Counted from the stretch's first letter, positions 1-26,062 are shown. The stretch is 57,308 nucleotides of DNA from Alphaproteobacteria bacterium (GCA_018658465.1 JABHVE010000016.1:1-57308), one strand, 5' to 3'. Notes: a model not told the origin generated them from the letters alone. Made by a program: numbers and translations.

Positions 1-528
1 CGAGGGTTCGGCGCGTTTTCAGAATGGGTTCGAATGGCGTCCGAAGCTCGTCGGGGAACGTGCCCAATTCATGGATATGCGGCAATAGGCCCCGACGCTG
101 AACTAGTTTCTGAAGCGGACGAAACAAAATCCTTTGGACCGGGGTCTGCGTTCGACGCCATGCACCAGGCCGGGTTTTCACTGCTACTTTTAGGATGCTC
201 ATTTCAACAGGGCGCGACCTTCGTGCACCATGTGGAATCGAATGTCGGTGTCCCATACCGGGAGTGGCTGAAATTGCCTCGCCAAATTCGCCAATCGGAT
301 GGCGGCATCCACAAAATCCAAGTCGACTACTACGCGCGGATGAATGGGACTCCGTGGCAACCCCATCTTCATGACCTGCAAGAAGAAATGATGAGGAAGG
401 ATCTGACGGTGTCAGTTGCTGCTCCTTACGGAACCAGTCATCTGATGCAATTGGATACCCTATACAAAACAACCAAAGCGATGCTTTCAGAAAATCCCCT
501 TGCGATGGTCATCAATGATCCAGCTTAG
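1..528 (+). CDS. AAC(3)-family (Antibiotic_NAT fold) N-acyltransferase; 5' end lies outside the window
   Basis: Frame 1 is open from nt 1, with no stop before the listed ATG at 34, so the gene is cut by the window edge. Segments SFGPGSAFDAM, LLLLGCSFQQGATFVHHVE and VPYREW resemble the conserved core of aminoglycoside 3-N-acetyltransferase-like enzymes. Stop is TAG 526-528. Confidence 0.65.
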   Translation, partial: RGFGAFSEWVRMASEARRGTCPIHGYAAIGPDAELVSEADETKSFGPGSAFDAMHQAGFSLLLLGCSFQQGATFVHHVESNVGVPYREWLKLPRQIRQSDGGIHKIQVDYYARMNGTPWQPHLHDLQEEMMRKDLTVSVAAPYGTSHLMQLDTLYKTTKAMLSENPLAMVINDPA

Positions 529-1981
529 CCCGACCGACCCTGTGGCTAGGCTGCTGGCCCATTGCCATGGGCAGCCCGATCATCCAGCCGTTGTTACCGA
601 AACTGAGACCGTGACATACGGCGAATTTGGCGATCGGGTGCGGCAATTTGCATCGGCTGTGGTGGGGGTTGGGGAAGCTCCAAAGGTGCTGATCCAGCTT
701 CCTCAGGGGGCGAACGCCTATGCAGCAATGTTCGGAGCGCTAATGGCCGGTGGATTTTATGCGCCGATCGATGTGGCGGCACCGCCGGCCCGTCGGCAAA
801 AAATTTTTGAAAGCTTTGGCCCGGACGTAGTGATCACCAAGGGAGAGCTGGAATCGAATGCTCCCGTGATCGATCCCTCCCAGATCGATCTTCCCGGCTT
901 AGAAGCTCCCAAAACACCACACGAATTGGCCTATGTGATCTTTACGTCGGGATCCACGGGGGAGCCAAAGGGCGTGAATATCCCACGGGATGGATTGGCC
1001 CACTATGCCGCCTGGGCTATCGACGCGATGGAGGTCACACCCGCCGATCGCTGGTCGCAGCATCCAAACATTGCCTTCGATCTTAGCGTGTTGGATATTT
1101 ATGGGGCATTGTGTGGCGGTGCGACTTTGTACCCGCTGATCTCTCAAAAGGATCGTTTATTCCCCGCCGATATGATCCGCCGGAACAAACTGACAATCTG
1201 GGATTCTGTCCCCAGCGTGATCGATTTAATGCAGCGCACAGGCCAAGTGGATGCTGAACACCTTTCATCATTACGGCTAGCCACGTTCTGCGGGGAACCG
1301 TTGCTTGGCGAACATTTAGACGCTCTGTTTGGCGCCCATGGGGCCCTGAACGTTCACAACACCTATGGCCCGACCGAAGCTACCGTTTCGTGCACACTGA
1401 TCGAATTGAATCAGGCAAATTACCGCGAAGCTATCGGCACCAGCGTGGCTTTGGGGGAGGCAATTCCAGGAATGGGTCTTCATCTTGTGGACGGACCGGA
1501 CGAAAACGAAGGTGAAATTGTTCTGTCCGGGCCCCAAGTTGCCAAAGGGTATTGGCAAGATGCGGAACGATCGAAAGCCGCATTCGTCGAGCTTGAAATC
1601 GATGGCAAACGCCACGCTGTGTACCGTACCGGTGACTGGGGCGCGTACCGGGGTGGTAATTTGTTTTTTGGCTCGCGAACCGACCGCCAAGTCAAGATCC
1701 ATGGCCACCGGCTGGAATTGGGGGAGGTCGACGCCGCCATGCGCGCATGCGGTGCAACATCTGCCTGCACCGTTCTGGCGGGTGGCGAATTGCATGGCTT
1801 CGTGGAAGGGATCCCACAGGCCGATATTGCTGGGTTTCGAAAAAAGCTCCAGGATCAGCTTCCGGCCTATGCTGTCCCGCGAGAATTGCATCCGACCGCG
1901 GCGTTACCGCGCAACGCCAACGACAAAATTGACTCTGGCGTTTTGACCCGCCAGGTAGAGCAAGAAATGGTGGGCCAATGA
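500..1981 (+). CDS. Stand-alone adenylation enzyme (AMP-dependent ligase, DltA/AlmE-like)
   Basis: Adenylation core motifs are present: AYVIFTSGSTGEPKGV, NTYGPTE, YRTGDWG, GSRTDRQVKIHGHRLELGEV and a C-terminal NANDKID lysine. Start is TTG 500 or, more likely, ATG 515. The stop overlaps the next start (ATGA at 1978-1981). Confidence 0.9.
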   Translation: MRWSSMIQLSPTDPVARLLAHCHGQPDHPAVVTETETVTYGEFGDRVRQFASAVVGVGEAPKVLIQLPQGANAYAAMFGALMAGGFYAPIDVAAPPARRQKIFESFGPDVVITKGELESNAPVIDPSQIDLPGLEAPKTPHELAYVIFTSGSTGEPKGVNIPRDGLAHYAAWAIDAMEVTPADRWSQHPNIAFDLSVLDIYGALCGGATLYPLISQKDRLFPADMIRRNKLTIWDSVPSVIDLMQRTGQVDAEHLSSLRLATFCGEPLLGEHLDALFGAHGALNVHNTYGPTEATVSCTLIELNQANYREAIGTSVALGEAIPGMGLHLVDGPDENEGEIVLSGPQVAKGYWQDAERSKAAFVELEIDGKRHAVYRTGDWGAYRGGNLFFGSRTDRQVKIHGHRLELGEVDAAMRACGATSACTVLAGGELHGFVEGIPQADIAGFRKKLQDQLPAYAVPRELHPTAALPRNANDKIDSGVLTRQVEQEMVGQ

Positions 1982-2253
1982 GCACAACCGACGATCACAG
2001 CGCAAACGAGGTTCGACGAATTGTTTTGAATTTCATCCAACCTGACTTAAAGCGGTTGGGTCTTGAAGCCGACCAAGTCAGCGACAAAACGGATTTGCTG
2101 GAACAAGGGATCGTCGATTCGTTCGGGTTTCTGGATTTGATCGGTGCAGTGGAAGACGGCCTTGGCCTGTCCCTTGACCTTGGTGGCCTTGATCCCGAAA
2201 AAATGGCCACGCTGGGCGGGTTGATTGGTGGGTTTCTCGACGGTGCCAAGTAA
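1978..2253 (+). CDS. Acyl/aminoacyl carrier protein (DltC-like, 91 aa)
   Basis: Small acidic protein with a phosphopantetheine-serine context, GIVDSFGFLDLIGAVE. It is translationally coupled (ATGA) to the adenylation enzyme. Confidence 0.8.
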   Translation: MSTTDDHSANEVRRIVLNFIQPDLKRLGLEADQVSDKTDLLEQGIVDSFGFLDLIGAVEDGLGLSLDLGGLDPEKMATLGGLIGGFLDGAK

Positions 2254-2266
2254 TCCACCACGCTTT

Positions 2267-3148
2267 GTGATCGTTGGGGATGGCAGTCCCGCCCAGGAAG
2301 CTGTGAAGTTTCTTGTAGGTGCTGAGGCGGCTATTTCGGCAGTGTTCACAACCTCGAAGGAAAGCCGCGGGCTAGTAAACTTTGTTGAAAGTAAAAACCT
2401 ACCCTGGTTTGAAAGCGAAACACTTAAGGACATCCATAATATTCCACCCCTCGCATTCGATGGGAATTGGCTGATCAATGCCTTTAGCCCGATCATCCTG
2501 CGCGCCGCCGTTCTTGATCGATTTGGCCCCCAAGCACTCAACCTTCACAATGGGCCGCTTCCTCAATATGCAGGCATAAACGTCACCCAGTGGGCGATCC
2601 GCAACGGAGAAAGCGACTCCGCTTGCACAATCCACGAAATGACAAAAAAAATTGACGGTGGCCCAATCGTTGCCACACGCACGTTTCCTATCGGGCTTGA
2701 GGAAACTGGCCTTGATGTTTTTCGCAACAGTATGAAAATCGGCGCCGCGCTCTTGGTCGATGTCCTGCAAATGATTCTGGATAAAAAGCCGCTCCAGTCG
2801 CACCCTCAGAGCGCTGAAAATCGCCGCGTCTACTCGATGAAGGAAGCAAAAAATTCGGTTCTTGATTGGGCACTTGATGCAGAACAAGTGCGGGATTTCA
2901 TTCGGGCCGCAGATTACCGGCCGATGCAATCGCCAACTTATCAAGCACAATGGAGACTGCCTGGTGGGGAGCTTGTTCAATTGTCCAGGGCTAAAGTTGT
3001 GACCGGAAGATCAGGTTCGACGGGGGAGGTTTTATCGATTGATGATCAGGGACCGACGATCATTTGTGGCAATAATGCCGTGAAAATTACAGCTGCGTAT
3101 CTCGGCGCAAAAAAATTGGACAGGGCTTCGTGGACAAAACTTCTTTGA
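2267..3148 (+). CDS. Formyltransferase-fold protein (Fmt/ArnA-N-like, N- and C-terminal domains)
   Basis: LNLHNGPLPQYAGINVTQWAI is a variant of the HxSLLPxxRG motif, followed by IHEMTKKIDGGPIV with the catalytic Asp context. The C-terminal part has an Fmt_C-like beta-barrel (GEVLSIDDQGPTIICGNNAVKI). The track ORF begins at TTG 2225, but GTG 2267 (MIVGDGSP) avoids overlap with the carrier protein gene. Confidence 0.7.
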   Translation: MIVGDGSPAQEAVKFLVGAEAAISAVFTTSKESRGLVNFVESKNLPWFESETLKDIHNIPPLAFDGNWLINAFSPIILRAAVLDRFGPQALNLHNGPLPQYAGINVTQWAIRNGESDSACTIHEMTKKIDGGPIVATRTFPIGLEETGLDVFRNSMKIGAALLVDVLQMILDKKPLQSHPQSAENRRVYSMKEAKNSVLDWALDAEQVRDFIRAADYRPMQSPTYQAQWRLPGGELVQLSRAKVVTGRSGSTGEVLSIDDQGPTIICGNNAVKITAAYLGAKKLDRASWTKLL

Positions 3149-4500
3149 GCGCAATCGGTTCCGCTTCGGGATCCGGCAAATCAATGCGGGATTTTTTGGT
3201 CGCGTTATGGCCCCTGCACCGCACTCTGAACAGTGACGACATGGAACGAGCGCTGGAAATGTGCGGCGAATTCGTCGCAGATTTGGGCGATCAGGTTCAA
3301 TTTCGAATGGAGCGATTCCGACCTGGCGAAGATGTTTATACCTGGTGGATCCCCGAGCGATACAAAGTTAACGAAGCTTGGCTAGAAATCGACGGTGAAC
3401 GCATTGCAGACTTCAAAGACAATCCCCTTCATCTGTTGTCGTATTCCGTACCAACGGTCATCGATGGGCGTCTTGGCGACATGCGTGATCACATTTGGTC
3501 CCGAGAAAAAAACCCTGACGCTATTCCGTGGGAATTCAAATACTACGATCGGTCATGGGGATTTTGTGTACGCCATAATGATCTAATGCGATTCCGTGAC
3601 GACGCAGTCGTAAAGGGCGTAATTGACGTTGAGTTTACCGACGAGGATTTTTGTATCGCAGATATTTTCTTGCCCGGTGAGTCCGATGAAGAAATGCTAT
3701 TTTTGACCAATATCTGCCATCCGATGCAGGTCAACGATTCTATATCCGGATTGGTGGTTGCCCTGGAAATGGTGCGGACACTGGCTGCCCGAAAAGACAG
3801 ACGTTATGGGCTCCGCGTTCTGATTGTCCCTGAAACGATTGGCACGATGGCGTGGCTGTCACGAAACGAGAAAATCGCTGCTCGCGCAAAATTCGCGTGG
3901 TTCTGTGAAATCATTGGTCACGATAATTCTTTCGCCCTGCAGCACTCTCGCCAAGAAACCTCGGCACTTATTGACCGAGCCTTTTTGTCAGTTTTGCGCG
4001 GGCATCGGGTGCACGGCGAAGAGCGAACAGGGGAATTTCGTAAGCTAGTTGCTAGCGATGAGATGATAACGAACGGCCCTGGATGGGACCTGCCGACGCC
4101 CTGCTTGAACCGGTGGCCATATGACGAATATCACACCAGCGATGACAACCCGGATATCATTTCCGAAGAAAATCTTAGTGAAACACTGGATGTCTTTATT
4201 GATCTTTGGGATGCGCTGGAAAAGAATTATTACCCCCGACGCACCTTTATTGGCCCCGTCATGTTATCTCGTTACGGCCTGTGGGTAGATTGGCGCGAAG
4301 ATCGCAGCTTGAATTTGGCAATCGATGACTTAATGTGCCTGCTGGAAGGTGATTTCTCAATCATCGATATCGCCCACCAACTCAGCCTGCCCGCAAGCAC
4401 CGTATTTTTCTACTTGAATCGATTTTTTGAAGCGGGACTGATAGAAAAGAGCCCAACACCGTGGGCGCAACAAGCTAGAACGGTTGGCGAAGAATTCTGA
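3130..4500 (+). CDS. Aminopeptidase-like (M28-like) DUF4910/COG4310 protein with C-terminal winged-helix
   Basis: Carries the EYHTSDDNPD metal-site-like motif typical of M28-like folds and the C-terminal DIAHQLSLPASTVFFYLNRFFEAGLIEK wHTH. An alternative ATG at 3184 (MRDFLVALWPLHRTL) looks like the usual family N-terminus. Confidence 0.6.
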   Translation: MDKTSLSAIGSASGSGKSMRDFLVALWPLHRTLNSDDMERALEMCGEFVADLGDQVQFRMERFRPGEDVYTWWIPERYKVNEAWLEIDGERIADFKDNPLHLLSYSVPTVIDGRLGDMRDHIWSREKNPDAIPWEFKYYDRSWGFCVRHNDLMRFRDDAVVKGVIDVEFTDEDFCIADIFLPGESDEEMLFLTNICHPMQVNDSISGLVVALEMVRTLAARKDRRYGLRVLIVPETIGTMAWLSRNEKIAARAKFAWFCEIIGHDNSFALQHSRQETSALIDRAFLSVLRGHRVHGEERTGEFRKLVASDEMITNGPGWDLPTPCLNRWPYDEYHTSDDNPDIISEENLSETLDVFIDLWDALEKNYYPRRTFIGPVMLSRYGLWVDWREDRSLNLAIDDLMCLLEGDFSIIDIAHQLSLPASTVFFYLNRFFEAGLIEKSPTPWAQQARTVGEEF

Positions 4501-5593: not shown

Positions 5594-6328
5594 ATGGAAA
5601 AGGTGCTCAAGTGGCTCCGCGGGAGCCACAATTCTGTACGGTACCGCTTTATTGACCACCCACGCCAATGGGTCGAATACGTTCTGCTTTTTCGACTAAG
5701 GGGTAAAACCTGGGTCGATTTTTATGCCCATCGATTGGACCGCCCGGCTCGGGATACAGCCGACGAACCGATCCAAGAAGATTATCTTGAACGAGGCCGT
5801 GATTGGTTTGCGTACATCAAAGATCACGGGTTGCAGCCTGAGCACAAATTTCTTGATTATGGTTGCGGGGTTATGCGGATCGGCGTCCCCGTGATCAATT
5901 ATCTAGATCCTGGAAATTATGTTGGCTTGGATATTTCACCGGCACGCCTTGCTCGGGGTCATCGTCTTGCGGCAGAAAACGGGATCTCCGATGATCGCTA
6001 TCAGACCTTTGTGGTGGGCGATTGCAAATTGCTTGAACTCGGCGACCAGCGATTCGATTTCGTCTGGGCTTCTTCGGTTCTGAACCACATGCCAGACGCC
6101 GATATCTTAGAGATGCTGTCCGCCATGCGCGGACATATTTCGTCTACCGGGCAGTTTTTGTTTCAATACAACATGGGCGAAAAAAACCACCGTATCGGCA
6201 TCAAAGATTTCGTAGTCACTGGCGAAAAAATGCAGCGATGGTGCGAACAGGCGGGTTTCGTTTTTGAAAACCTGCCAAGCCATGATGGGACGTCCTATCA
6301 GTTGGTCCGCCTGACCGTTTCCTCATAA
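5594..6328 (+). CDS. Class I SAM-dependent methyltransferase
   Basis: Motif I is FLDYGCGVMRIG, followed by an acidic motif II (YVGLDIS) and motif IV-like FDFVWASSVLNHM. The track ORF starts at 5534; ATG 5594 (MEKVLKW) lies after the upstream stop. Confidence 0.8.
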   Translation: MEKVLKWLRGSHNSVRYRFIDHPRQWVEYVLLFRLRGKTWVDFYAHRLDRPARDTADEPIQEDYLERGRDWFAYIKDHGLQPEHKFLDYGCGVMRIGVPVINYLDPGNYVGLDISPARLARGHRLAAENGISDDRYQTFVVGDCKLLELGDQRFDFVWASSVLNHMPDADILEMLSAMRGHISSTGQFLFQYNMGEKNHRIGIKDFVVTGEKMQRWCEQAGFVFENLPSHDGTSYQLVRLTVSS

Positions 6329-6423
6329 GCACGGTGAACGGCAAGACCGGGCCATTCAATGGCCCCTAACTCCACACAAAAAAATTTCCAAGACAGACTT
6401 TCTTTAGAGGGTAGAAACACAGC

Positions 6424-8588: not shown

Positions 8589-8674
8589 CTTCCTTCCTAG
8601 GCCTGGGGCAGTATGGCTCTGGCCCGTTCACCAAATGGCCTCGGCCAAAATTCTCCAATATTGATGGTATTCCT

Positions 8675-17049: not shown

Positions 17050-17073
17050 GGCCCACAGGTAAGGACACAGGCC

Positions 17074-20093: not shown

Positions 20094-21410
20094 ATGAATC
20101 GGTTCTTCTCATCTATTTGGGGACTGGCGGTCGTGGCAGTCATCGCCGTGACCGTGTTTGTGTTGATCCAGGGCGGCGCGTTTTTCGACTCCATCGCGCT
20201 GAGGCTGTTGTTCGTCGGAGGTCCTGTTTCAGTGTTGATCCTGTTACTGGGCGCCCGTATTTGGCTGCCCGTTTGGCTTCCGACCATAACCATGTCCTTG
20301 GCGGCACTGGCTGCGGCCCTTTTTGCAGGCGAGGCCATCTTGCTATCAAGTGTCGAAGTAATATGGGGCACTCCCGAAATTACCAATTCCAAAGCGGATT
20401 ACATCGTTGACCTGCGCAGCCAAGGCAGAAACGCCCATGTGAACCTGTTCCCCAAGGGCCTTGTGGAGCGGAGCGGACTAGGATCCATGCGGTCAGCAAT
20501 TTCGATCGATGGAGAGGAAGTGCTGCCCCTTACCGGGATATCCCAGGCGACGATAGTGATGTGCCGGAACGGAAATTTGGAATGGGAGATTTTTGAGTCA
20601 GACCTGTTTGGTTTCCCCAACCCATCCGAAGTTTGGTCGGCGTCATCCGTTCCCGTGGGAGCTGTGGGAGATTCCAATACCCAGGGGTGGTGCGTTCCCA
20701 CCAGCCAATCATTCATGGGGCTAACCCGCTCCTCGATTCCCGGGTTAATCAACGTTGGCGCCGCCGGAAATGGCCCGATCGCCGACCTCGCCGCATTGCG
20801 GGAGTACTTGGCACCGATGAAGCCTAAAATAGTACTGTGGCTGTTTACCGGTGCCAACGACATCACCGATTTGGATCGCGAACTCAACACGCCGGTGCTG
20901 AGTGCATATCTTGATCTCGGTCATTCGCAGGGATTGAAGGATTTGCAGCCCCAGATCGACAAAGCGTTGGTGGACTTTTCCATTGATGCGCTTGACACCG
21001 CCATTGCAGGTGGCCGCACAATTGACTACCGCGAGGCGGTCCGCCGCATGCTGACGTTGTATGATCTCCGGAATTTAATTGGCATCGACAGAGGCGCAGC
21101 GACCCGACCAAATTTCGGACTTTTGGGGGAAGTTCTAGCAATGGCCAATAGCGAGGTAACCGCCTGGGGTGGAAAAATGTATTTCGTTTATCTACCAACG
21201 CCACGTGATGCAACGTCCCGCGAACTTCCTAACAGAGCCGGTATTTTGCGCACTGCTGCAGCTCAACAGCTGCCAATCATCGATCTTACACAATCATTCC
21301 AAAATTTTTCCGATCCTATCAGTCTCTTTCAGAAAAATGGGGGGTCTCATTACAGCCTCGTCGGCCACGCTCTAGTGGCCGCGGAAATCCTTGATGGGAT
21401 TAGCCAATAA
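20094..21410 (+). CDS. Membrane-anchored SGNH/GDSL-like hydrolase or acyl-transfer accessory protein
   Basis: Two or three N-terminal TM helices. Block I-like GAVGDSNTQGW, block III-like LWLFTGANDITD and a C-terminal GGSHYSLVGH. Assignment is from motifs only. Confidence 0.5.
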   Translation: MNRFFSSIWGLAVVAVIAVTVFVLIQGGAFFDSIALRLLFVGGPVSVLILLLGARIWLPVWLPTITMSLAALAAALFAGEAILLSSVEVIWGTPEITNSKADYIVDLRSQGRNAHVNLFPKGLVERSGLGSMRSAISIDGEEVLPLTGISQATIVMCRNGNLEWEIFESDLFGFPNPSEVWSASSVPVGAVGDSNTQGWCVPTSQSFMGLTRSSIPGLINVGAAGNGPIADLAALREYLAPMKPKIVLWLFTGANDITDLDRELNTPVLSAYLDLGHSQGLKDLQPQIDKALVDFSIDALDTAIAGGRTIDYREAVRRMLTLYDLRNLIGIDRGAATRPNFGLLGEVLAMANSEVTAWGGKMYFVYLPTPRDATSRELPNRAGILRTAAAQQLPIIDLTQSFQNFSDPISLFQKNGGSHYSLVGHALVAAEILDGISQ

Positions 21411-22486
21411 CACAATTCGGAGTTGCCGACGACGCGCTTCGCGTCCGGGAAGCAGTTAGCACCGATCGGGATTCGTGGAACGAATTTGTCCGCACCCAGC
21501 CTGATCAACCGCCCTTTGCTGATTTCGAGTGGAAATCAATAATCGAGGCCTCTTTCGGGCTGCGCTGCTTCTGGCTGATTGCCGAAGACAGCAGCGGTCA
21601 GATTCGCGGCGTTCTCCCCCTGTATCGGGGGCGGTCAAAACCGTCGGACGCACTGTTCGGTTTACGATTTGGCTTGGTGGCGGATGGCCACGAAGCTGAA
21701 GCAGATTTATTGGGGGCAGCCTCTGATATTGCGATGCACCAAGGCTGCACCAAGTTGGTAGTTTGCACGGGCTATCGGGCACTTTCTGAACCAGTCGAAG
21801 AGTGGCAACATGAGGTTCGCAACACCATGATTGCCGATATTCACGCGGGCGAAGAGACTGCCTGGATGGCCTTGCGGCCGAACGTTCGCAATAACATTCG
21901 TAAAGGCCAAAAGGCGGGACTGACCCTTGAATGGGGTGCGGAACATCTTCCCAACTTCCACCGGGTGTACGCAGATCTGATGGCGCGCAAAGGCCTGCCA
22001 GGGCTTCCAAGAAAATTTTTTACGAACATCCTTTCCCAATTGGGAGACAGAGCAGCATTCTTGGCGGCGTTGGTGGACGGAAGGGTCCTTGGCGGCACCG
22101 TGGTGCTGCGGACCGGCACCATCCATCACTGTACCTTTCAGGCTGCCGATCCAAATGCCAGTTCAGCGTTCGCTCCAACGCCGGCCATGGAATGGGAAGT
22201 TATTCGAACTGCCATCGCCGCCGGAGCCGCAAAGGCTGATTTGGGCGAATCCACTCCGGACAGCGGGACGTTTAAATTCAAGCGCCGATACGGCGGCGAG
22301 GCCACCGAATTGCACTATTACCACTACAAAGATCCGACCCGCCCGGAATCTTCGCCCAACCAAAAGTCCCAAGCAGCACCAACATCCCCTAGCCCTAGCC
22401 TTCAACATCGCGTTTACGATGCAGCGCCGTTGTGGGGACAACGGTGGGTCAGTCAGCGGCGTGGCATGAAGGGGCGTGTGATTTGA
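21407..22486 (+). CDS. FemAB-like / Acetyltransf_6 GNAT-fold transferase; start codon unresolved
   Basis: Family-like sequence (ALRVREAVSTDRDSWNEFV...FEWKSIIEASFG...WLIAEDSSGQIRGVLPLY) is encoded in frame from about 21422. The frame is open from 21404, but the first ATG/GTG/TTG is TTG 21674. The only start-like codon near the expected N-terminus is ATA 21407-21409, which overlaps the upstream TAA. Confidence 0.65.
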   Translation: MTQFGVADDALRVREAVSTDRDSWNEFVRTQPDQPPFADFEWKSIIEASFGLRCFWLIAEDSSGQIRGVLPLYRGRSKPSDALFGLRFGLVADGHEAEADLLGAASDIAMHQGCTKLVVCTGYRALSEPVEEWQHEVRNTMIADIHAGEETAWMALRPNVRNNIRKGQKAGLTLEWGAEHLPNFHRVYADLMARKGLPGLPRKFFTNILSQLGDRAAFLAALVDGRVLGGTVVLRTGTIHHCTFQAADPNASSAFAPTPAMEWEVIRTAIAAGAAKADLGESTPDSGTFKFKRRYGGEATELHYYHYKDPTRPESSPNQKSQAAPTSPSPSLQHRVYDAAPLWGQRWVSQRRGMKGRVI

Positions 22487-24345
22487 GCCGAGAAATCCCA
22501 CAATCACCCAGGATATCGGGCGAAAAAGTGGCTTTGGGCGACATCGAAGTCGTTTACGCGGATTCACGATCGGGGTTAGAAGCCGCCTGGGCAATGGGCC
22601 TGTCCCGAGACGCAGAAATTAGAACGTCATCGCCAAATTTGTTGCTGGACCCTGATTTGGGGGCCGTGGCATCGGATAAAGAGTTTCATCCAGCGCGCTT
22701 GAAACAAATTTTCGAAGAGACTACGGAGTGGGCGAAATCTTTTTACCTGGAATTGCTAGAAGAGACAGGATCCTCACAGTTAGCGCTTTTGGCGGCACAC
22801 CGGGCGAGCCGCTTTCAGACGCCCATTTTTAAAATTATGGCGCTGCAAGAAAGCGATTTCCACAGGCCGGTGGCCGTCCTTTCCTACGATATCTCTGATT
22901 CATTTAAACAAGCACTGTTGACCCCAGCGGTTTTGGGCATTCTGAAAGTCAGTTCAAAATTTAGGGAAATTCAACTGCCAGAATCCGCCTTGGATTTTCC
23001 CACTCCAGTGGTGGCGCATTCCGCCCCATTCTTGGAACGTCTTCATATGTCAACATGGGCGAGCAGAGGGTACCGGGGAGCCCTGTGGCTATGGAATCGG
23101 ATCCCATTTCGATCGTCCAAGGGGACAATTCTGATACTTGACGAGAATTCCTTGTTGAAAGAAACGGCATTTGAATTTGCGAAGCGTGGCTACGGGTTGC
23201 GTCGGCTGGGTGTTCCGCAATTAGAGCCCGGTCACACCCTGACCGACAAAGCAGCAGAATTTCTAGGTCGGCTTCCCCCCAAAATTTCCAAACAGTTCGA
23301 AAAATGGTTACTGCCAGAAGCAATTGGTCCGGCCACTGACCATTTGATGACCGAGATTGCAGACTACGTGTCCCGGTATGACAGTACACTTGATGGGTGG
23401 CGAAAGACTTTCGCGAGCCTTGACGGAGATCGCCCTCGCGCAATTTTTGCCAACCGCGTCTATCCAGCCGAAGCAATCAGCCTGCATCAAGTAGCCAGTG
23501 AATATGGATTGCCGGTGGCCTCCTTCCAGCATGGGGTTTCCCGTGAAATCGGATTGGTCGGAGATCGCGATGAAATCTGGTTTGAAACGACGTCCGCCAA
23601 CATCTTTTTTACCCACACCGAGGAAGCCGCACGCATTACCAACTCCAGCGAGTTGGGATCGGGTCGAGCAATCGCCGCCGGCATTGAACAAGATTTTCGT
23701 CGGGCAGGAACCTTGCCTCCCGACGATTCAAGTGCTCCACCAATTTGGTATATTGGAACGATGGGACATATCGGAAATTTTACGATGCTGAACAGAGGCA
23801 TGCGAGATCTCGACCAATCAAAATTCGAGATCAAGATGATAGACAAGGTTTTAGGTCAGTTGCCTCATCGGGTATTGTATAAACCCTATCCTGGATGCCG
23901 ATATGATGGTCCCGACCCGGTAGTTGACCGGGCCTCAACCGCAAAACAAATACATGCATTCACAGAAAGTCGCGATTTACGGTACATGCTGCGCAACAGC
24001 CGCGTGCTTATTACTTCGCGCACTTCTTCCACGGTTTCCCTGTGCCTGATGTCCAACCGACCGCTGGTCTATGTTCTTTTCCCAGGACGACCCCTTAGCC
24101 CAAGTGCCAGAGAGGCGATGGACAAGGGCGTTTTCTTGTTCGATTCAGAGGCGGACAATTTTTGGGACGAATTGCGAGATTTTCTTTCACAGCCAATTGA
24201 GAAAATCGAAGCTAAATGGCTTGACCGAGCTGCGGCTCGGGCAGATTTGATCCACGAATTTTTTGACGCTGGCAACGGCCACGCAGCAGCCCGAGCAGCC
24301 GACATGCTGGAGCAATCAAATTTTAATCCAAGCCGGATGGCTTGA
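22483..24345 (+). CDS. Conserved protein of unknown function, paralog B of 10244-12115
   Basis: Collinear similarity to paralog A over the whole length. The track ORF starts at GTG 22432. TTG 22483 overlaps the upstream TGA (TTGA) and gives an N-terminus of comparable length to paralog A. Confidence 0.85.
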   Translation: MSREIPQSPRISGEKVALGDIEVVYADSRSGLEAAWAMGLSRDAEIRTSSPNLLLDPDLGAVASDKEFHPARLKQIFEETTEWAKSFYLELLEETGSSQLALLAAHRASRFQTPIFKIMALQESDFHRPVAVLSYDISDSFKQALLTPAVLGILKVSSKFREIQLPESALDFPTPVVAHSAPFLERLHMSTWASRGYRGALWLWNRIPFRSSKGTILILDENSLLKETAFEFAKRGYGLRRLGVPQLEPGHTLTDKAAEFLGRLPPKISKQFEKWLLPEAIGPATDHLMTEIADYVSRYDSTLDGWRKTFASLDGDRPRAIFANRVYPAEAISLHQVASEYGLPVASFQHGVSREIGLVGDRDEIWFETTSANIFFTHTEEAARITNSSELGSGRAIAAGIEQDFRRAGTLPPDDSSAPPIWYIGTMGHIGNFTMLNRGMRDLDQSKFEIKMIDKVLGQLPHRVLYKPYPGCRYDGPDPVVDRASTAKQIHAFTESRDLRYMLRNSRVLITSRTSSTVSLCLMSNRPLVYVLFPGRPLSPSAREAMDKGVFLFDSEADNFWDELRDFLSQPIEKIEAKWLDRAAARADLIHEFFDAGNGHAAARAADMLEQSNFNPSRMA

Positions 24346-24418
24346 TGACCAAACGAATTTGTCGGCGAGAATTTGCCCTGATGGTTTGTGACCCCTACGC
24401 CAGGAAAGGATACTTTCG

Positions 24419-26062
24419 ATGCCCCTAATTAGCCGCAGGGTTTGGTCTGGGTCCAACCCGCTATTCTTCCGGACCGTCGCCAAAGCAGCCGATGGGAGCT
24501 CTGTCCCAGCTGGGTACAAGTTTTCTCGCCTCACCGATCCGGCCGTCCTGGAACAATCAATTTTCTCCATCCGGGACCGTGCTTTGCGCATGCGGCCAAG
24601 ATTGCAAAGCAACCACCATTGCTACGGGTTTACAACGCCGTCAGGGGAGGTCGTATCGTTCATTTGGATATCCATCGCCGAAACAGAGCCAATGGAGGTA
24701 CCCTTCCGCGACGGTATGAGCATTCGATTGAATCCCGGACAGGCCTATGTTTGGGATTGCGCCACCGTTGCCTCGCACCAACGTCGAGGCCTTTACCGCG
24801 CGGGGCTTCACCAGGCGCTTGGGCTTGCCGCCCATGCAGGCGCCATTGATTGCTACATTTGCACCGATGAAGAAAACGTGGCGTCCGTGCGAGGCATTTT
24901 AGGCGCGGGTTTTGAGAGATGCTTTGACCTTTCATTGAGGCGCATTGGGCCTGTGCGCCAAATTGGTGAGGCGGAGAACAAGGCACTGGTCTTGGGCCGC
25001 GCGCCTCCGGTGCAACTGCACCCAGGAACCCATTCAGGCCCTCGGATTTTCGTTTTTGGAAACAGCGGATACGCGACGATGGTCTTACGCTCGTTGATGG
25101 AGCGAAATGGACATATTGTGGGTGTTTGCAGTCGCGGCCTGGGGCCTTGGAGTCGCCGCATAGGGCGCGGTGCAAGCCGATTGGCGCGAACGCTTGGGAT
25201 CGATCCAAGAGAAAATTTTAATCACCGAGAGGTCTTCGATGAACTGGAGCGACCCACTGAGGTCGCGCGCCAGGTAGGGGTTCCGGTTCTTGACTCCCGC
25301 GATATTCTCAGTCCCGATTTCGAAAATTTTCTTCGCCGCCTGGGCCCGGATTTAATTTTGGTGGCTGGGTTTCACCGGCTAATTCCACCCAACATCATTG
25401 CCGTTGCCAACAAAGCCGCCGTCAATCTTCACCCCAGCCTGCTACCAAAACACCGAGGTGGGACCCCCGCACGGTGGGTGGTAAAACTGGGCGAGCGCAA
25501 TACCGGTGCGACCGCCCATATCCTAAGCCCGGAATTCGATACCGGAGATATTTTGGCCCAGTCCGAATGCCCTGTTTTCGAGAACGACACTTCAGGAGAT
25601 GTGGAGCTTCGCGTTTCCCATCTGATGGTGGATTTGGCCAACAAGGTCGTGGACGACGTTGCCGCCGAAACCCTGCAAAAATTGCCGCAAAATGAAAGTT
25701 CTGCAACTTATGAAGCGCCGTTTCATAGTGGATATCAAGAGATCGATTGGTCCTTACCAGCCAGCGAGATCCGACGAATCTGCTACGCAATGCGACCAAA
25801 ATCCGGGGGCATGGCCTGGTATGGGGACAAGCGGGTTTGCGTGTGGAACCTAACACCAGCGGACAACACCAATCCCGGCAAGGCTGGTACGGTGTTGGGA
25901 CTTGATGAGGAATTCCGGCCGGTGGTTGCCTGCGGCGATGGAGCTCTGGTCGTCACCGAAGCTTTGTGGAGAGGCCGCGTGGTCCCGGCCGCCTGGATTT
26001 CCAAAAAATTGGGACTAGAGCCAGGCAAACGATTTCGATCAATCTCTGAACTACCCGCTTAA
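24419..26062 (+). CDS. Fusion protein: N-terminal GNAT-like acyltransferase plus C-terminal formyltransferase (Fmt/ArnA-N-like)
   Basis: The first ~190 aa carry a GNAT motif-A-like segment (VASHQRRGLYRAGLHQAL...VASVRGILGAGFE). From about aa 215 the protein has IFVFGNSGYA, a canonical VNLHPSLLPKHRGGTP, HILSPEFDTGDIL and an Fmt C-terminal domain. Confidence 0.8.
   Translation: MPLISRRVWSGSNPLFFRTVAKAADGSSVPAGYKFSRLTDPAVLEQSIFSIRDRALRMRPRLQSNHHCYGFTTPSGEVVSFIWISIAETEPMEVPFRDGMSIRLNPGQAYVWDCATVASHQRRGLYRAGLHQALGLAAHAGAIDCYICTDEENVASVRGILGAGFERCFDLSLRRIGPVRQIGEAENKALVLGRAPPVQLHPGTHSGPRIFVFGNSGYATMVLRSLMERNGHIVGVCSRGLGPWSRRIGRGASRLARTLGIDPRENFNHREVFDELERPTEVARQVGVPVLDSRDILSPDFENFLRRLGPDLILVAGFHRLIPPNIIAVANKAAVNLHPSLLPKHRGGTPARWVVKLGERNTGATAHILSPEFDTGDILAQSECPVFENDTSGDVELRVSHLMVDLANKVVDDVAAETLQKLPQNESSATYEAPFHSGYQEIDWSLPASEIRRICYAMRPKSGGMAWYGDKRVCVWNLTPADNTNPGKAGTVLGLDEEFRPVVACGDGALVVTEALWRGRVVPAAWISKKLGLEPGKRFRSISELPA

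What the first reader, a model, noticed from the sequence alone, without database searches (positions are those of the whole stretch)
1..26062. A ~26 kb translationally coupled operon stacks at least five N-acylation chemistries on a minimal, divergent NeuB/cytidylyltransferase core
Every credible gene from the left edge to 26062 is on the + strand.

Junctions are often overlapping:
- ATGA at 1978, 13018, 14010 and 14759.
- TAATG at 7528.
- TTGA at 22483.
- A 7-nt overlap at 19040.
The largest gaps are 125 nt (16538-16662), 95 nt (6329-6423) and 86 nt (8589-8674).

The amide-forming and N-acyl enzymes in this one unit are:
- an adenylation enzyme with a carrier protein;
- an ATP-grasp ligase;
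- a FemAB-like (potentially aminoacyl-tRNA-dependent) transferase;
- an AAC(3)-like and a GNAT acyltransferase;
- two formyltransferase folds.

The unit also has an epimerase, two methyltransferases, a carbamoyltransferase, an oxygenase-like protein, a double flavodoxin protein and an SGNH protein.

The only sugar-building enzymes are an aldo/keto reductase, a NeuB-like synthase whose N-terminal motif reads EAAQGYEG instead of the usual EIGxNHNG, and an SpsF-like cytidylyltransferase. I found no Wzx, Wzy, Wzz or initiating phosphoglycosyltransferase in the window.

The combination points to a heavily aminoacylated, formylated, carbamoylated and methylated nonulosonic-acid-like glycan, or possibly a glycopeptide-like small molecule. 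I cannot map it to a characterised pathway.
Basis: partly seen in the sequence, partly recalled or inferred. Interest (0 to 1): 0.75.

Follow-up and report, generated by a model that had tools for sequence, protein, structure and literature searches.

The report
Truncated operon for a decorated sialic-acid-like glycan
The 26 kb gene run is real, but it is only the right-hand two thirds of a 36 kb or longer operon in an uncultured bacterium that most likely builds, heavily decorates and exports a sialic-acid-like (nonulosonic acid) surface sugar; this is an unusually elaborate example of a known kind of locus, and it contains a widespread enzyme pair that nobody has characterised.

Summary
**Observation: confirmed.**
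- Positions 1-26062 hold 23 co-directional + strand genes.
- Nearly all domain calls survive profile searches.

**Interpretation: partly right.**
- The "minimal NeuB/cytidylyltransferase core" is an artefact. The window is a whole contig that starts inside the operon.
- A near-identical 481 kb contig shows about 10 kb more of + strand genes upstream. These are HisF/HisH-like proteins, a PseB-like dehydratase, a methyltransferase, a radical SAM enzyme, an RmlD-like reductase, a second NeuB, a small GT2, a class-III aminotransferase and the rest of the AAC(3)-like gene.

**The divergent NeuB.**
- Its AE-x-AQG[YF]EG motif marks a conserved clade. I found it in 61 genome loci across many phyla and archaea.
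- It sits next to the SpsF-like gene in 57 of those 61 loci. More distant relatives are fused to it in 7 loci.
- It is usually embedded in pseudaminic-acid-type operons that carry a second NeuB.

**Other parts.**
- The two 620-aa unknown proteins are GT-B-fold proteins (pLDDT 93). Their family sits beside PseI in Pse operons, so they are probably nonulosonic acid transferases.
- The AAC(3)-like, adenylation, carrier and DUF4910 genes form one recurring N-acylation cassette.

**Verdict.** This is a new variant of a known kind, with moderate interest. The product and most enzyme steps are inferred, not shown.

The parts
1..528 (+). C-terminal 175 aa of an AAC(3)-like N-acyltransferase. The gene is cut by the contig end.
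   Evidence: Pfam Antibiotic_NAT E=2.5e-18, matching profile positions 75-231 only. The full gene is 270 aa on the 481 kb contig.
515..1981 (+). DltA-like adenylating enzyme (amino acid or acid to carrier-protein ligase).
   Evidence: Pfam AMP-binding E=3.7e-64. Many homologues are named D-alanine--poly(phosphoribitol) ligase subunit 1 by JGI.
1978..2253 (+). 91-aa carrier protein. Its start overlaps the preceding stop (ATGA).
   Evidence: Pfam PP-binding 22.7 bits, cut-off 20.8. A VDSFG serine motif is visible in the translation.
2228..3148 (+). Formyltransferase-fold enzyme 1 (Fmt/ArnA-like).
   Evidence: Pfam Formyl_trans_N plus Formyl_trans_C. NCBIfam ArnA and Fmt E about 1e-23. An N-x-H...D pattern is present (LNLH...IDGG). 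Absent from the 61% identical relative.
3130..4500 (+). DUF4910/DUF2172 peptidase-like protein with a C-terminal winged helix.
   Evidence: Pfam E=7.6e-53 and 3e-21. The family was previously linked to modified-sugar operons (PMC4000134).
4545..5567 (+). Unknown 340-aa protein, possibly a PhyH-type dioxygenase.
   Evidence: Only PhyH E=0.0087, below cut-off. No PDB relative. Conserved in the relative locus.
5594..6328 (+). SAM-dependent methyltransferase 1.
   Evidence: Pfam Methyltransf_25/12/31/11. The ATG at 5594 agrees with the 244-aa gene call on the 481 kb contig.
6424..7530 (+). ATP-grasp-like ligase.
   Evidence: No Pfam hit. NCBIfam PRK12767 'carbamoyl phosphate synthase-like' E=4.6e-14. 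28% identical to an ATP-grasp gene of locus L036.
7530..8588 (+). Enolase-superfamily racemase/epimerase (MR_MLE).
   Evidence: Pfam MR_MLE_C E=1.3e-30. NCBIfam hits, all below cut-off, to o-succinylbenzoate synthase, N-acetyl-D-Glu racemase and L-Ala-D/L-Glu epimerase.
8675..10216 (+). 513-aa flavoprotein with one detectable FMN_red domain and a Cys-rich C-terminal half.
   Evidence: Pfam FMN_red E=1.7e-15 at residues 75-203.
10244..12115 (+). GT-B-fold protein (U623), a putative nonulosonic acid transferase. Paralogue 1.
   Evidence: No Pfam hit. AlphaFold2 pLDDT 93.1. Foldseek matches GT-B 2-epimerases and glycosyltransferases, E=1.5e-8, probability 1.00. Weak hits to BFO_1060 and LIC12162. 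Family members lie just upstream of PseI in Pse operons.
12122..13021 (+). Aldo/keto reductase.
   Evidence: Pfam E=2.2e-29. The same slot holds an AKR in 25 and a GFO-type oxidoreductase in 16 of 61 loci.
13018..14013 (+). Divergent NeuB-family synthase of the AE-x-AQG[YF]EG clade.
   Evidence: Pfam NeuB 132 bits plus SAF. NCBIfam NeuB and PseI hits far below equivalog cut-offs. The motif is nearly invariant. Residue mapping to N. meningitidis NeuB is.
14010..14762 (+). SpsF-like nucleotidyl (cytidylyl) transferase.
   Evidence: CTP_transf_3 E=0.0015, below cut-off. PDB 6oew cytidylyltransferase E=1e-6. Next to the NeuB-like gene in 57 of 61 loci and fused to related NeuB-family synthases in 7 loci.
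14759..16537 (+). Fused TMD-NBD ABC exporter (MsbA/PglK architecture).
   Evidence: Pfam ABC_membrane plus ABC_tran. Homologues occur in other Pse-type loci.
16663..17049 (+). SxtJ-family membrane protein.
   Evidence: Pfam SxtJ E=4e-10.
17074..17226 (+). 50-aa DUF5989 membrane peptide.
   Evidence: ORF. Precomputed Pfam DUF5989 on the same gene in other assemblies. 54% identical copy in NulO locus L038.
17253..19046 (+). NodU/CmcH-type carbamoyltransferase.
   Evidence: Pfam Carbam_trans_N E=5.9e-103 and Carbam_trans_C E=7.8e-73.
19040..20050 (+). SAM-dependent methyltransferase 2.
   Evidence: Pfam Methyltransf_31/11/25.
20094..21410 (+). SGNH/GDSL-like protein with a hydrophobic N-terminal stretch, likely membrane-anchored.
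   Evidence: Lipase_GDSL_2 E=3.6e-5, below cut-off. The hydrophobic N-terminus is visible.
21407..22486 (+). FemAB-like (aminoacyl-tRNA-dependent type) transferase with no canonical start codon for its N-terminal lobe.
   Evidence: Pfam Acetyltransf_6 and FemAB. Frame open from 21404. PDB 9wqy 'aminoacyl-tRNA-dependent peptide synthase' E=2.9e-7, with query residues 145-307 on chain residues 142-306. ATA at 21407. Identical in two other assemblies.
22483..24345 (+). GT-B-fold protein (U637). Paralogue 2, 53% identical to U623.
   Evidence: The start is uncertain (TTG 22483, GTG 22432, or later as in the JGI gene call).
24419..26062 (+). GNAT plus formyltransferase fusion protein.
   Evidence: Pfam Acetyltransf_1, Formyl_trans_N and Formyl_trans_C. 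PDB Fmt and ArnA E about 1e-27 and formyltransferase PseJ E=2.6e-10. 36% identical homologue in Pse-type locus L097.
26067..26939 (-). PIG-L-family de-N-acetylase, convergent with the run. It marks the right-hand boundary.
   Evidence: Pfam PIG-L E=9.7e-19. The same convergent position is seen in the relative locus. PIG-L occurs in 13 of 61 NeuB-like loci.

Best explanation
Positions 1-26062 are the distal two thirds of an operon of at least 36 kb. It lies in a surface-polysaccharide island of an uncultured, probably alphaproteobacterial, organism. The operon most likely makes, N-acylates, activates, transfers and exports one or two nonulosonic-acid-type (pseudaminic-acid-family) sugars.

**Shown**
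- The gene content and gene order.
- The upstream extension of the operon.
- The conservation and pairing of the NeuB-like and SpsF-like genes.
- The GT-B fold of the two paralogues.

**Inferred**
1. *Early steps, outside the window.* Upstream genes (PseB-like dehydratase, RmlD-like reductase, class-III aminotransferase, first NeuB) supply a 6-deoxy-amino-hexose and a first ulosonic acid.
2. *First N-acylation cassette.* The DltA-like enzyme loads an amino acid onto the 91-aa carrier protein. Formyltransferase 1 formylates either that aminoacyl group or the sugar amine. The AAC(3)-like enzyme moves the acyl group from the carrier to a sugar amine. DUF4910 is an accessory of this cassette.
3. 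*Second acyl or peptide unit.* The ATP-grasp ligase and the enolase-type epimerase add and epimerise a second amino acid or acid. Methyltransferase 1, the possible dioxygenase and the flavoprotein tailor it.
4. *Second synthase pair.* The AKR, the NeuB-like synthase and the SpsF-like enzyme act in sequence as oxidoreductase, PEP-dependent condensing enzyme and nucleotide-activating enzyme. They work on a second, differently substituted aldose.
5. *Transfer and export.* The two GT-B paralogues transfer the activated sugar or sugars. The ABC protein flips or exports the lipid-linked or polymeric product.
6. *Late tailoring.* The carbamoyltransferase with SxtJ/DUF5989, methyltransferase 2, the SGNH protein, the FemAB-like enzyme and the GNAT-formyltransferase fusion add late decorations.
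For: **Gene content and packing.** Pfam and NCBIfam calls. Junctions and gaps.

**Upstream extension.** Seen on the near-identical 481,632-bp contig and on the 100,573-bp relative.

**NeuB-like clade.**
- The motif is nearly invariant in 30 homologues.
- 400 relatives were found in the genome collection.
- Among 61 loci with the AQG[YF]EG motif, partners are: SpsF-like 57, class-III aminotransferase 47, a second NeuB-family gene 46, DegT 37, PseB 34, PseG 32, and AKR 25 or GFO 16 in the same slot.
- More distant NeuB-family genes picked up by the same scan, with intermediate motifs such as AEIANAHQG, are fused to an SpsF-like domain as single ORFs in 7 loci, including archaea and Firmicutes.
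- Conserved residues (N. meningitidis numbering): both metal-binding His, E25, E234, K53, Q55, K129, D247 and R314.
- Replaced by clade-specific residues: N29, H30, E134, N184, Y186 and S213 (residue roles partly from PMC8208679).

**GT-B paralogues.**
- The U623 model has pLDDT 93 and a GT-B fold.
- The family has 712 cluster representatives.
- In 8 of 13 metagenome loci a family member lies immediately upstream of a PseI-like gene, in Pse operons that also carry PseG.
- There is a weak match to the Tannerella nonulosonic acid transferase family BFO_1060 (knock-out evidence for that family in PMC5420450).

**N-acylation cassette.** DUF4910, an acyl loader, a carrier protein and an AAC(3)-like gene recur together. 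The loader is FkbH-like in L059. Clostridium acetobutylicum has a similar set (PMC4000134).

**Surroundings.** PIG-L, FkbM methyltransferase, two GT4s, CysNC/CysD, YjbH, YjbF and a Wza-like exporter.
Against: - No chemistry is shown. No enzyme in the run reaches an equivalog cut-off for a known nonulosonic acid step.
- PseC/DegT, PseG and NeuC/LegG homologues were not seen in the window, nor in the 10 kb upstream that could be listed. The route to the aldose substrate is therefore incomplete.
- The upstream genes are known only as a list of Pfam hits, not as sequence.
- The SpsF-like protein is below the Pfam cut-off for cytidylyltransferases.
- The GT-B fold is shared by glycosyltransferases and by nucleotide-sugar 2-epimerases/hydrolases, so the transferase role is not proven.
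- Which sugar each tailoring enzyme acts on is unknown.
- A single transcript is inferred from packing alone.
- The FemAB-like gene may be decaying.
Confidence: 0.62

Rival explanations
1. This is a mosaic polysaccharide locus. The run is one operon, but most tailoring enzymes act on other residues of a heteropolysaccharide, for example hexosamines de-N-acetylated by PIG-L. On this reading the nonulosonic sugar itself is only modestly modified.
For: PIG-L, FkbM methyltransferase, two GT4s and sulfate-activation genes lie next to the run. The tailoring genes (DltA-like, ATP-grasp, MR_MLE, FMN_red, FemAB-like) are absent from the 80 genome loci that carry the NeuB-like/SpsF-like pair, so they are not obligate partners of it. 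O-carbamoylation and N-aminoacylation of ordinary hexosamines are known in other glycans (own knowledge).
Against: In the closest relative, the tailoring genes are interleaved with the NulO genes in the same order from DUF4910 to the ABC gene. DUF4910 cassettes and ATP-grasp genes recur specifically beside spsE/spsF or PseI genes. A homologue of the GNAT-formyltransferase fusion lies in a Pse-type locus.
Confidence: 0.22
2. This is a protein O-glycosylation island. The activated nonulosonic sugar is transferred to flagellin, pilin or an S-layer protein rather than into a polysaccharide.
For: Nonulosonic acids with unusual N-acyl groups are typical of flagellin and S-layer glycans. The DUF4910/spsE/spsF/ATP-grasp/ACP neighbourhood was first described in a Clostridium locus that also holds a Maf-type gene. 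The only experimentally supported relatives of the GT-B paralogues act on a protein-bound glycan.
Against: No Maf (MAF_flag10) domain, FlmG-like gene, flagellar, pilin or S-layer gene was found among the scanned ORFs of the window. The neighbours are capsule/EPS export genes (YjbF, YjbH, Wza-like). An ABC exporter sits inside the run.
Confidence: 0.1
3. This is a secreted small molecule: a glycopeptide-like or nucleoside-like natural product, exported by the ABC pump.
For: The run has an adenylation enzyme with a free-standing carrier protein, an ATP-grasp ligase, a relative of aminoacyl-tRNA-dependent peptide synthases, an epimerase, methyltransferases, a carbamoyltransferase with the SxtJ/DUF5989 pair known from the saxitoxin cluster, an upstream radical SAM enzyme and an MsbA-type exporter.
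Against: No condensation, thioesterase or ketosynthase domain is present. The NeuB-like/SpsF-like pair and the GT-B family live almost only in Pse-type sugar operons. The island is flanked by polysaccharide export genes.
Confidence: 0.06

Closest known systems
Pseudaminic acid (Pse) biosynthesis operons, PseB-C-H-G-I-F, of Campylobacter, Helicobacter and others
   Same: A NeuB-family PEP-condensing synthase is followed by a nucleotidyltransferase. A PseB-like dehydratase lies upstream. The NeuB-like clade and the GT-B family both live inside operons with PseB, DegT/PseC, PseG, PseH and PseI homologues. Formyl-Pse enzymes such as PseJ are relatives of the formyltransferase domains.
   Different: No protein here reaches the NCBIfam equivalog cut-offs for PseI or NeuB. 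The activating enzyme is SpsF-like, not PseF-type. PseC and PseG were not seen in this genome's listed stretch. There are two synthases and far more tailoring genes than in any characterised Pse operon.
Bacillus subtilis sps operon (SpsC-G), a legionaminic acid pathway for the spore crust (PMC7439481, listed)
   Same: It pairs an SpsE-type NeuB homologue with an SpsF-type nucleotidyltransferase. PDB 1vli (SpsE) is the second-best solved relative of the NeuB-like protein.
   Different: Similarity to SpsE is low (E=8e-24, and no AQGYEG motif). Different accessory genes. I did not read that paper's details.
DUF4910/DUF2172 'modified carbohydrate' neighbourhoods, e.g. Clostridium acetobutylicum CA_C2186-2199 (Das et al. 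2014, PMC4000134)
   Same: DUF4910 occurs with spsE, spsF, an ATP-grasp amino-acyl ligase, amino-sugar N-acetyltransferases, an acyl carrier protein, methyltransferases and glycosyltransferases.
   Different: That description is purely computational, with no product known. The Clostridium locus has a Maf-type gene and a HAD/FkbH-type loader. This locus has a DltA-like loader, two formyltransferases, a carbamoyltransferase and a FemAB-like enzyme.
Tannerella forsythia nonulosonic acid derivative transferases (Tanf_01245, TFUB4_00887, BFO_1060; PMC5420450)
   Same: They are GT-B/TagB-like proteins encoded next to the CMP-Pse or CMP-Leg genes. The C-terminal part of U623 gives a weak match to the BFO_1060 family (E=8e-7).
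   Different: The match scores 28.5 bits against a family cut-off of 200, and only 2 of 70 family members show it. U623 is about 620 aa against about 445 aa. It belongs to a separate family without a Pfam model.
Variant Pse clusters with SpsF-like, AKR and class-III aminotransferase genes in Vibrionaceae (PMC7371886) and Legionella pneumophila serogroups 6 and 12 (PMC3694923)
   Same: The same accessory genes sit in nonulosonic acid or LPS clusters. An SpsF-like/AKR fusion was proposed to replace NeuA. PseG, a 'GSA aminomutase', a cytidylyltransferase-like gene, HisF/HisH and an aryl-alcohol dehydrogenase are adjacent in Legionella.
   Different: Those papers only note the genes. No function or product was assigned, and whether those clusters contain the AQGYEG-type NeuB was not checked here.

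Membership tests
NeuB / nonulosonic acid synthase family | NeuB TIM-barrel domain plus a C-terminal SAF (antifreeze-like) domain | tested here: met
   Pfam NeuB 132.4 bits (cut-off 22.1) and SAF 31.2 bits (cut-off 21).
NeuB / nonulosonic acid synthase family | Metal-binding histidines and catalytic/substrate residues of N. meningitidis NeuB (E25, E134, E234, H215, H236, R314) | tested here: inconclusive
   E25, E234, H215, H236, K53, Q55, K129, D247 and R314 are conserved. E134 is Asp here and Asn in most of the clade. N29, H30, N184, Y186 and S213 are replaced (residue roles and own knowledge).
NeuB / nonulosonic acid synthase family | Orthology to a characterised synthase (NeuB, PseI or LegI) | tested here: not met
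   NCBIfam NeuB_NnaB 154.7 bits against cut-off 399.65. PseI 135.9 bits against cut-off 340.25.
CMP-nonulosonic acid synthetases (CTP_transf_3: NeuA, PseF, LegF) | Significant match to the cytidylyltransferase profile | tested here: inconclusive
   Pfam 18.8 bits, below the 22.6 cut-off. PDB 6oew 'cytidylyltransferase' E=1e-6 over residues 7-208.
CMP-nonulosonic acid synthetases (CTP_transf_3: NeuA, PseF, LegF) | Genetic coupling to the synthase whose product it activates | tested here: met
   4-nt overlap with the NeuB-like gene. Adjacent in 57 of 61 loci. Related NeuB-family synthases are fused to an SpsF-like domain in one ORF in 7 loci.
CMP-nonulosonic acid synthetases (CTP_transf_3: NeuA, PseF, LegF) | CTP-dependent formation of a CMP-sugar | not testable with these tools
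   Needs an enzyme assay.
Canonical pseudaminic acid pathway (PseB, C, H, G, I, F) | All six enzymes present in the locus | tested here: not met
   In the window none matches the six at equivalog level. Upstream there are only a PseB-like dehydratase and a NeuB. No DegT or PseG was listed within 10 kb upstream.
Wzx/Wzy-dependent O-antigen or capsule locus | Wzx flippase, Wzy polymerase, Wzz/Wzc and an initiating phosphoglycosyltransferase | tested here: not met
   No such Pfam domains in the ORFs scanned across the 57 kb. A Wza-like exporter, YjbF and YjbH are present.
ABC-transporter-dependent glycan export | A dedicated ABC exporter encoded with the biosynthetic genes | tested here: met
   A fused ABC_membrane plus ABC_tran protein lies at 14759-16537, overlapping the SpsF-like gene by 4 nt. 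It has the MsbA/PglK architecture, not Wzm/Wzt or KpsMT.
GT-B glycosyltransferases (putative nonulosonic acid transferases) | Two Rossmann-like lobes (GT-B fold) | tested here: met
   Model pLDDT 93.1, pTM 0.92. Foldseek top hits are GT-B 2-epimerases and glycosyltransferases, E down to 1.5e-8, target-normalised TM 0.45-0.64.
GT-B glycosyltransferases (putative nonulosonic acid transferases) | Membership of a family with demonstrated nonulosonic acid transfer (BFO_1060/Tanf_01245, or sialyltransferase families) | tested here: not met
   BFO_1060 28.5 bits against cut-off 200. LIC12162 18.8 bits against cut-off 225. Only 2 and 6 of 70 family members hit these models.
Flagellin glycosylation island | Maf or FlmG transferase and linkage to flagellar genes | tested here: not met
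   No MAF_flag10 hit and no flagellar gene among the scanned ORFs of the window.
NRPS-type natural product cluster | Condensation and thioesterase domains alongside the adenylation and carrier domains | tested here: not met
   Only free-standing AMP-binding and PP-binding proteins are present. No condensation or thioesterase Pfam hits.
FemAB-type aminoacyl-tRNA-dependent transferases | Two GNAT-like lobes with a significant FemAB match | tested here: inconclusive
   Acetyltransf_6 57.7 bits and FemAB 34.2 bits. PDB aminoacyl-tRNA-dependent peptide synthase E=2.9e-7. The N-terminal lobe is encoded but lacks a canonical start codon.

The most novel reading that the evidence does not exclude
The operon makes two different CMP-activated nine-carbon sugars.

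- One is made by the uncharacterised AE-x-AQG[YF]EG NeuB clade together with its SpsF-like partner, an oxidoreductase and a class-III aminotransferase. These may introduce an extra amino group at the ulosonic acid or nucleotide-sugar stage.
- The amines then carry short peptide-like chains. These are built by three unrelated ligase systems (carrier-protein-dependent, ATP-grasp and aminoacyl-tRNA-dependent) and capped by formyl groups.

The result would be a peptide-decorated nonulosonic acid capsule unlike any solved structure. It would also define the function of a synthase/activator pair present in hundreds of bacterial and archaeal lineages.
Probability: 0.2. Interest if true: 0.75.

Novelty: new variant of a known kind. 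Interest (0 to 1): 0.48.

Why it matters
Nonulosonic acids shape how microbes are seen by hosts, phages and neighbours, and surveys suggest far more chemical variety than the few solved pathways explain. This locus matters for three reasons.

1. **An unstudied synthase/activator pair.** The divergent NeuB clade with its SpsF-like partner was seen in 61 genome loci from many bacterial phyla and archaea, and fused relatives occur in 7 more. It has no assigned substrate. It usually sits in operons that already have a PseI-type synthase, so many environmental organisms may make a second, unknown ulosonic acid.
2. **An unannotated GT-B family.** The family has about 700 clusters at 50% identity and no Pfam model. 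It is a good candidate for the scarce class of nonulosonic acid transferases.
3. **A natural test bed for N-acylation.** The run places carrier-protein, ATP-grasp, aminoacyl-tRNA, acetyl and formyl chemistries side by side in one operon.

The practical lesson for the scan is that the "minimal core" was a contig-edge artefact.

Tried and rejected
- **Exact look-up with the GTG start.** The NeuB-like protein starting at GTG 12994 was not found. The ATG 13018 form was.
- **Source organism.** It is not in the genome collection at more than 56% identity, and the protein clusters carried no organism names. Taxonomy therefore rests on the best relatives (Kiloniellales, Ferrovibrio, Rhodospirillaceae) and on a CcrM-type methylase with DciA.
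- **Crude ORF clustering.** It mis-called high-GC loci. I replaced it with tblastn against representative proteins.
- **An apparent SpsF-like/aminotransferase fusion in L025.** This was an ORF-extension artefact and was dropped.
- **Canonical CTP_transf_3 genes.** I looked for them among the frequent neighbour clusters and found none.
- **First U623 model.** With 6 sequences it was poor (pLDDT 62). It was repeated with 70 sequences.
- **PDB sequence searches.** U623, the ATP-grasp-like protein and the PhyH-like protein gave nothing useful.
- **Metagenome scans.** The scan with the FMN_red protein found nothing. Alignment A3 was too diverse for a scan. A2 worked.
- **Frameshift in the FemAB-like gene.** Rejected. 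It is one open frame without a canonical start.
- **U623 as a PseG or NeuC substitute.** I considered this. It is less likely because PseG co-occurs with U623-family genes in the same operons.
- **Literature.** Searches for the AKR/SpsF/aminotransferase combination returned only PMC7371886.

Full report
**1. What is in the sequence**

The window is 57,308 bases. It is a complete metagenomic contig: the protein database lists 57,308 bp as the longest contig that carries its NeuB-like protein.

From position 1 to 26062 there are 23 + strand genes. Minus-strand ORFs in that stretch are shorter and lie inside + strand ORFs that have strong profile matches.

- ATGA at 1978, 13018, 14010 and 14759.
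- TAATG at 7528.
- TTGA at 22483.
- A 7-nt overlap at 19040-19046.
- Gaps of 125, 95 and 86 nt at the stated places.

Depending on start-codon choices, about 11 of the 22 junctions overlap. Promoter-like and terminator-like matches inside the run are no more frequent than in shuffled sequence. That fits one long unit but does not prove it.

Two details need correction.
- A 50-aa DUF5989 gene lies at 17074-17226, between the SxtJ and carbamoyltransferase genes.
- The FemAB-like gene has no ATG, GTG or TTG before 21674, which leaves an apparent 263-nt gap. Its frame is open from 21404, and the extra 89 residues restore the N-terminal lobe. With them, residues 145-307 align to residues 142-306 of a solved aminoacyl-tRNA-dependent peptide synthase (E=2.9e-7).
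- The only possible start for that gene is ATA at 21407, which overlaps the TAA stop of the SGNH gene. A single G-to-A change would turn an ATGA junction into this ATAA. Two other assemblies from different samples have the identical sequence, so it is not an assembly error. The gene either starts at a non-canonical codon by coupling or is decaying.

**2. Do the motif calls survive?**

Mostly yes.

Above Pfam cut-offs:
- AAC(3)-type acetyltransferase, cut by the contig end.
- AMP-binding enzyme, PP-binding carrier protein.
- Two Formyl_trans_N plus Formyl_trans_C proteins. The second is fused to a GNAT domain.
- DUF4910/DUF2172, two methyltransferases, an MR_MLE epimerase, FMN_red, an aldo/keto reductase.
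- NeuB plus SAF, ABC_membrane plus ABC_tran, SxtJ.
- Carbamoyltransferase N and C domains, Acetyltransf_6/FemAB.

Both formyltransferase domains show the N-x-H...D pattern of Fmt and ArnA in the translation (the role of these residues is from general knowledge). The second is related to Met-tRNA formyltransferase and ArnA (E about 1e-27) and to the Pse-pathway formyltransferase PseJ.

Weak or unconfirmed:
- The "oxygenase-like" protein: PhyH E=0.0087, with no PDB relative.
- The SGNH protein: below cut-off.
- The ATP-grasp protein: only NCBIfam PRK12767, E=5e-14.
- "Double" flavodoxin: one FMN_red domain only.
- The SpsF-like protein: below the CTP_transf_3 cut-off, but E=1e-6 to PDB 6oew, a structural-genomics "cytidylyltransferase".

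**3. The window starts inside the operon**

Cluster look-up showed that near-identical copies of window proteins lie on a 481,632-bp JGI contig. Its gene list shows, upstream of window position 1 and all on the same strand:
- a HisF-like protein and a HisH-like glutamine amidotransferase;
- a PseB-type dehydratase (341 aa);
- a methyltransferase (351 aa) and a radical SAM protein (680 aa);
- an RmlD-like reductase (282 aa);
- a second NeuB with a SAF domain (356 aa);
- a small GT2 (232 aa) and a class-III aminotransferase (432 aa);
- the full 270-aa AAC(3)-like gene.

A 61-65% identical relative on a 100,573-bp contig keeps the order from the AAC(3)-like gene to the ABC gene, but lacks formyltransferase 1. 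Further upstream it adds an NTP-transferase with a CBS domain, an ordinary CTP_transf_3 enzyme and a 435-aa unknown protein.

The operon is therefore at least about 36 kb long. The "minimal, divergent core" is an edge effect.

On the right, the run ends at a convergent PIG-L gene (26067-26939). The relative has the same boundary.

**4. The divergent NeuB is a clade, and it has a fixed partner**

- Thirty homologues at 41-73% identity keep AE-[AVI]-AQGYEG almost invariant.
- A scan of one genome per species found 400 relatives.
- In the 80 best loci, 61 carry the AQG[YF]EG motif. They come from many bacterial phyla and from Methanosarcinales.
- Partner counts in those 61 loci: SpsF-like next to it in 57; class-III aminotransferase 47; another NeuB-family gene 46; DegT 37; PseB 34; PseG 32; AKR 25 or GFO-type oxidoreductase 16, both in the slot just upstream; PseH 21; ATP-grasp 21; RmlD-like reductase 21.
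- The usual order is PseB-(RmlD-like)-DegT-(AKR or GFO)-NeuB-like-SpsF-like-aminotransferase-PseG-(ATP-grasp)-PseI.
- No ordinary CTP_transf_3 gene is among the frequent neighbours.
- In seven loci (DPANN, Nitrososphaerales and Methanosarcinales archaea; Dethiobacter; a Gracilibacteraceae MAG) a related NeuB-family domain and the SpsF-like domain form one ORF of 587-898 aa. Their motifs are intermediate, such as AEIANAHQG and AEVACGHEG. This is strong genomic evidence that the two proteins act one after the other on the same molecule.

A profile alignment to N. meningitidis NeuB shows which residues are kept and which are changed:
- Conserved: both metal-binding histidines, E25, E234, K53, Q55, K129, D247 and R314.
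- Replaced by clade-specific residues: N29 to G, H30 to Y, E134 to D (N in most members), N184 to Q, Y186 to E, S213 to L.
- E25, E134, E234 and R314 are named as important in PMC8208679. The roles of the others are from my memory of the 1XUZ structure.

My reading (inference): this is an active PEP-condensing enzyme with a remodelled pocket for the aldose. It makes a second ulosonic acid that the SpsF-like enzyme activates.

The published record is thin. One paper notes an SpsF-like/AKR fusion in a Vibrio Pse cluster and suggests that it replaces NeuA. Another lists the same genes in Legionella serogroup 6 and 12 LPS clusters. NCBIfam has no specific model for any member of the module.

**5. 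The two unknown 620-aa proteins**

- U623 and U637 are 53% identical and have no Pfam domain.
- A full HMMER search found 712 cluster representatives, 323 of them at E<=1e-30 and nearly all about 600-620 aa.
- With 70 sequences, AlphaFold2 gave pLDDT 93.1 and pTM 0.92.
- Foldseek places the model in the GT-B superfold. The best matches are UDP-GlcNAc 2-epimerases (including NeuC) and GT-B glycosyltransferases such as CalG3, VinC, PglA and MurG (E down to 1.5e-8).
- In 13 metagenome loci, family members sit in Pse-type operons that also contain PseG. In 8 of them the gene lies immediately upstream of a PseI-like gene. A role as a PseG substitute is therefore unlikely.
- Weak matches to the Tannerella BFO_1060 family and to the LIC12162 family point to a transferase. 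In Tannerella, knock-outs of this family lose the terminal Pse or Leg derivative (PMC5420450). These matches are far below the family cut-offs.
- I call the two proteins putative nonulosonic acid transferases. Two copies would match two synthases.

**6. The N-acyl chemistries regrouped**

- DUF4910 proteins were already linked by neighbourhood analysis to spsE, spsF, ATP-grasp, ACP, N-acetyltransferase and methyltransferase genes. They appear to lack peptidase catalytic residues (PMC4000134).
- In locus L059 the order is DUF4910, FkbH-like loader, small carrier protein, AAC(3)-like gene, right after a Pse-type operon.
- Here the loader is DltA-like. Homologues are annotated as D-alanine carrier-protein ligase.
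- The AAC(3)-like enzyme, adenylation enzyme, carrier protein and DUF4910 are therefore best seen as one cassette, in which the AAC(3)-like enzyme takes its acyl group from the carrier protein (inference).
- Formyltransferase 1 overlaps both neighbours and is missing from the relative, so it is an optional add-on. It may formylate the carrier-bound aminoacyl group, as the formylation domain of linear gramicidin synthetase does, or it may formylate the sugar amine. Both options are inference.
- The remaining independent chemistries are the ATP-grasp ligase with the enolase-type epimerase, the FemAB-like enzyme, and the GNAT-formyltransferase fusion, which has a 36% identical homologue in Pse-type locus L097.
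- The carbamoyltransferase with SxtJ and DUF5989 recurs in another NeuB-like locus, L038, at 59% and 54% identity for the carbamoyltransferase and DUF5989.

**7. Surroundings**

- Downstream of the run: PIG-L; a FkbM methyltransferase and a GT4 on the + strand, ending at a strong terminator-like hairpin at 30725-30757; a Sel1 protein; CysNC and CysD (sulfate activation); another GT4; YjbH; a 1005-aa Wza-like/GfcC-like exporter; YjbF.
- After that come housekeeping genes: ETF-QO, SLT, MoCF, RNase HII, a CcrM-type methylase, MutY and DciA.
- G+C is 50-56% across the glycan island and 57-62% in the housekeeping part.
- No Wzx, Wzy, Wzz or initiating transferase was detected. The MsbA/PglK-type ABC protein inside the run is the likely flippase or exporter (inference).

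**8. Verdict**

The general interpretation, a heavily N-acylated, formylated, carbamoylated and methylated nonulosonic-acid-type glycan, is the best available reading, and I found no characterised counterpart.

The finding is less strange than it looked, for three reasons:
- The core is not minimal.
- The odd motif defines a common clade.
- The gene themes (DUF4910 cassette; SpsE/SpsF with ATP-grasp; formyl-Pse) are already known as uncharacterised neighbourhoods.

It is a new variant of a known kind. The most valuable leads are the uncharacterised NeuB-like/SpsF-like/oxidoreductase/aminotransferase module and the GT-B family. Everything about the product and about individual enzyme steps remains inference.

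Noticed in passing
window 21404-21673: The N-terminal lobe of the FemAB-like gene is encoded in frame but has no ATG, GTG or TTG start. ATA at 21407 overlaps the upstream TAA stop (ATAA, one transition away from ATGA). The sequence is identical in two independent assemblies. All gene callers report a truncated 270-aa protein.
   Followed up: yes
window 30725-30757 (+): Strongest terminator-like hairpin in the left half of the window (13-bp stem with 9 G-C pairs, then a T-rich tail), just after the + strand ORF 30195-30683. It probably ends the short + strand unit that holds the FkbM methyltransferase and a GT4.
   Followed up: no
window 31719-34430 (-): CysN/CysC fusion and CysD (sulfate activation to PAPS) lie between glycosyltransferase and export genes. 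This suggests a sulfated polysaccharide. No sulfotransferase domain was recognised; the unannotated ORFs at 26919-27878 and 27805-28743 are candidates.
   Followed up: no
window 35668-42035: Group-4-capsule/Yjb-type export set: YjbH (949 aa), a 1005-aa protein that combines Poly_export, several SLBB domains and a GfcC C-terminal domain, and YjbF. The YjbF ORF is on the opposite strand and overlaps the 5' end of the exporter ORF by about 190 nt, so one of the two starts is probably mis-set.
   Followed up: partly
window 1-30000 versus 44000-56000: G+C is 50-56% across the glycan island and 57-62% in the housekeeping flank. This is what one expects of a horizontally exchanged polysaccharide locus.
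   Followed up: no
loci L067, L069, L071, L072, L074, L075, L083: Single ORFs of 587-898 aa fuse a NeuB-family synthase to an SpsF-like nucleotidyltransferase, in archaea (DPANN, Nitrososphaerales, Methanosarcinales) and Firmicutes. Their N-terminal motifs are intermediate between the canonical and AQGYEG forms.
   Followed up: partly
loci L027 and L059: An RmlD-like reductase is fused to a DegT-type aminotransferase in one ORF (613 and 703 aa), next to the NeuB-like/SpsF-like pair.
   Followed up: no
locus L013 (Kiloniella laminariae) 13626-17557: Downstream of the NeuB-like/SpsF-like/aminotransferase module lie an asparagine-synthase-like amidotransferase (650 aa) and a 'PFTS motif' polysaccharide protein (641 aa). 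The latter may be another candidate transferase family in a culturable organism.
   Followed up: no
481 kb contig, upstream of window position 1 (gene list only): A 680-aa radical SAM protein and a 351-aa methyltransferase are inserted between the dehydratase and the reductase. Both are absent from the 61% identical relative. The 513-aa FMN_red flavoprotein in the window could be the electron donor for the radical SAM enzyme.
   Followed up: no
window 51755-52909: A radical SAM ORF (+, 375 aa) and a 380-aa ORF on the opposite strand cover almost the same coordinates. Only the + strand ORF was scanned; it has a Pfam hit.
   Followed up: no
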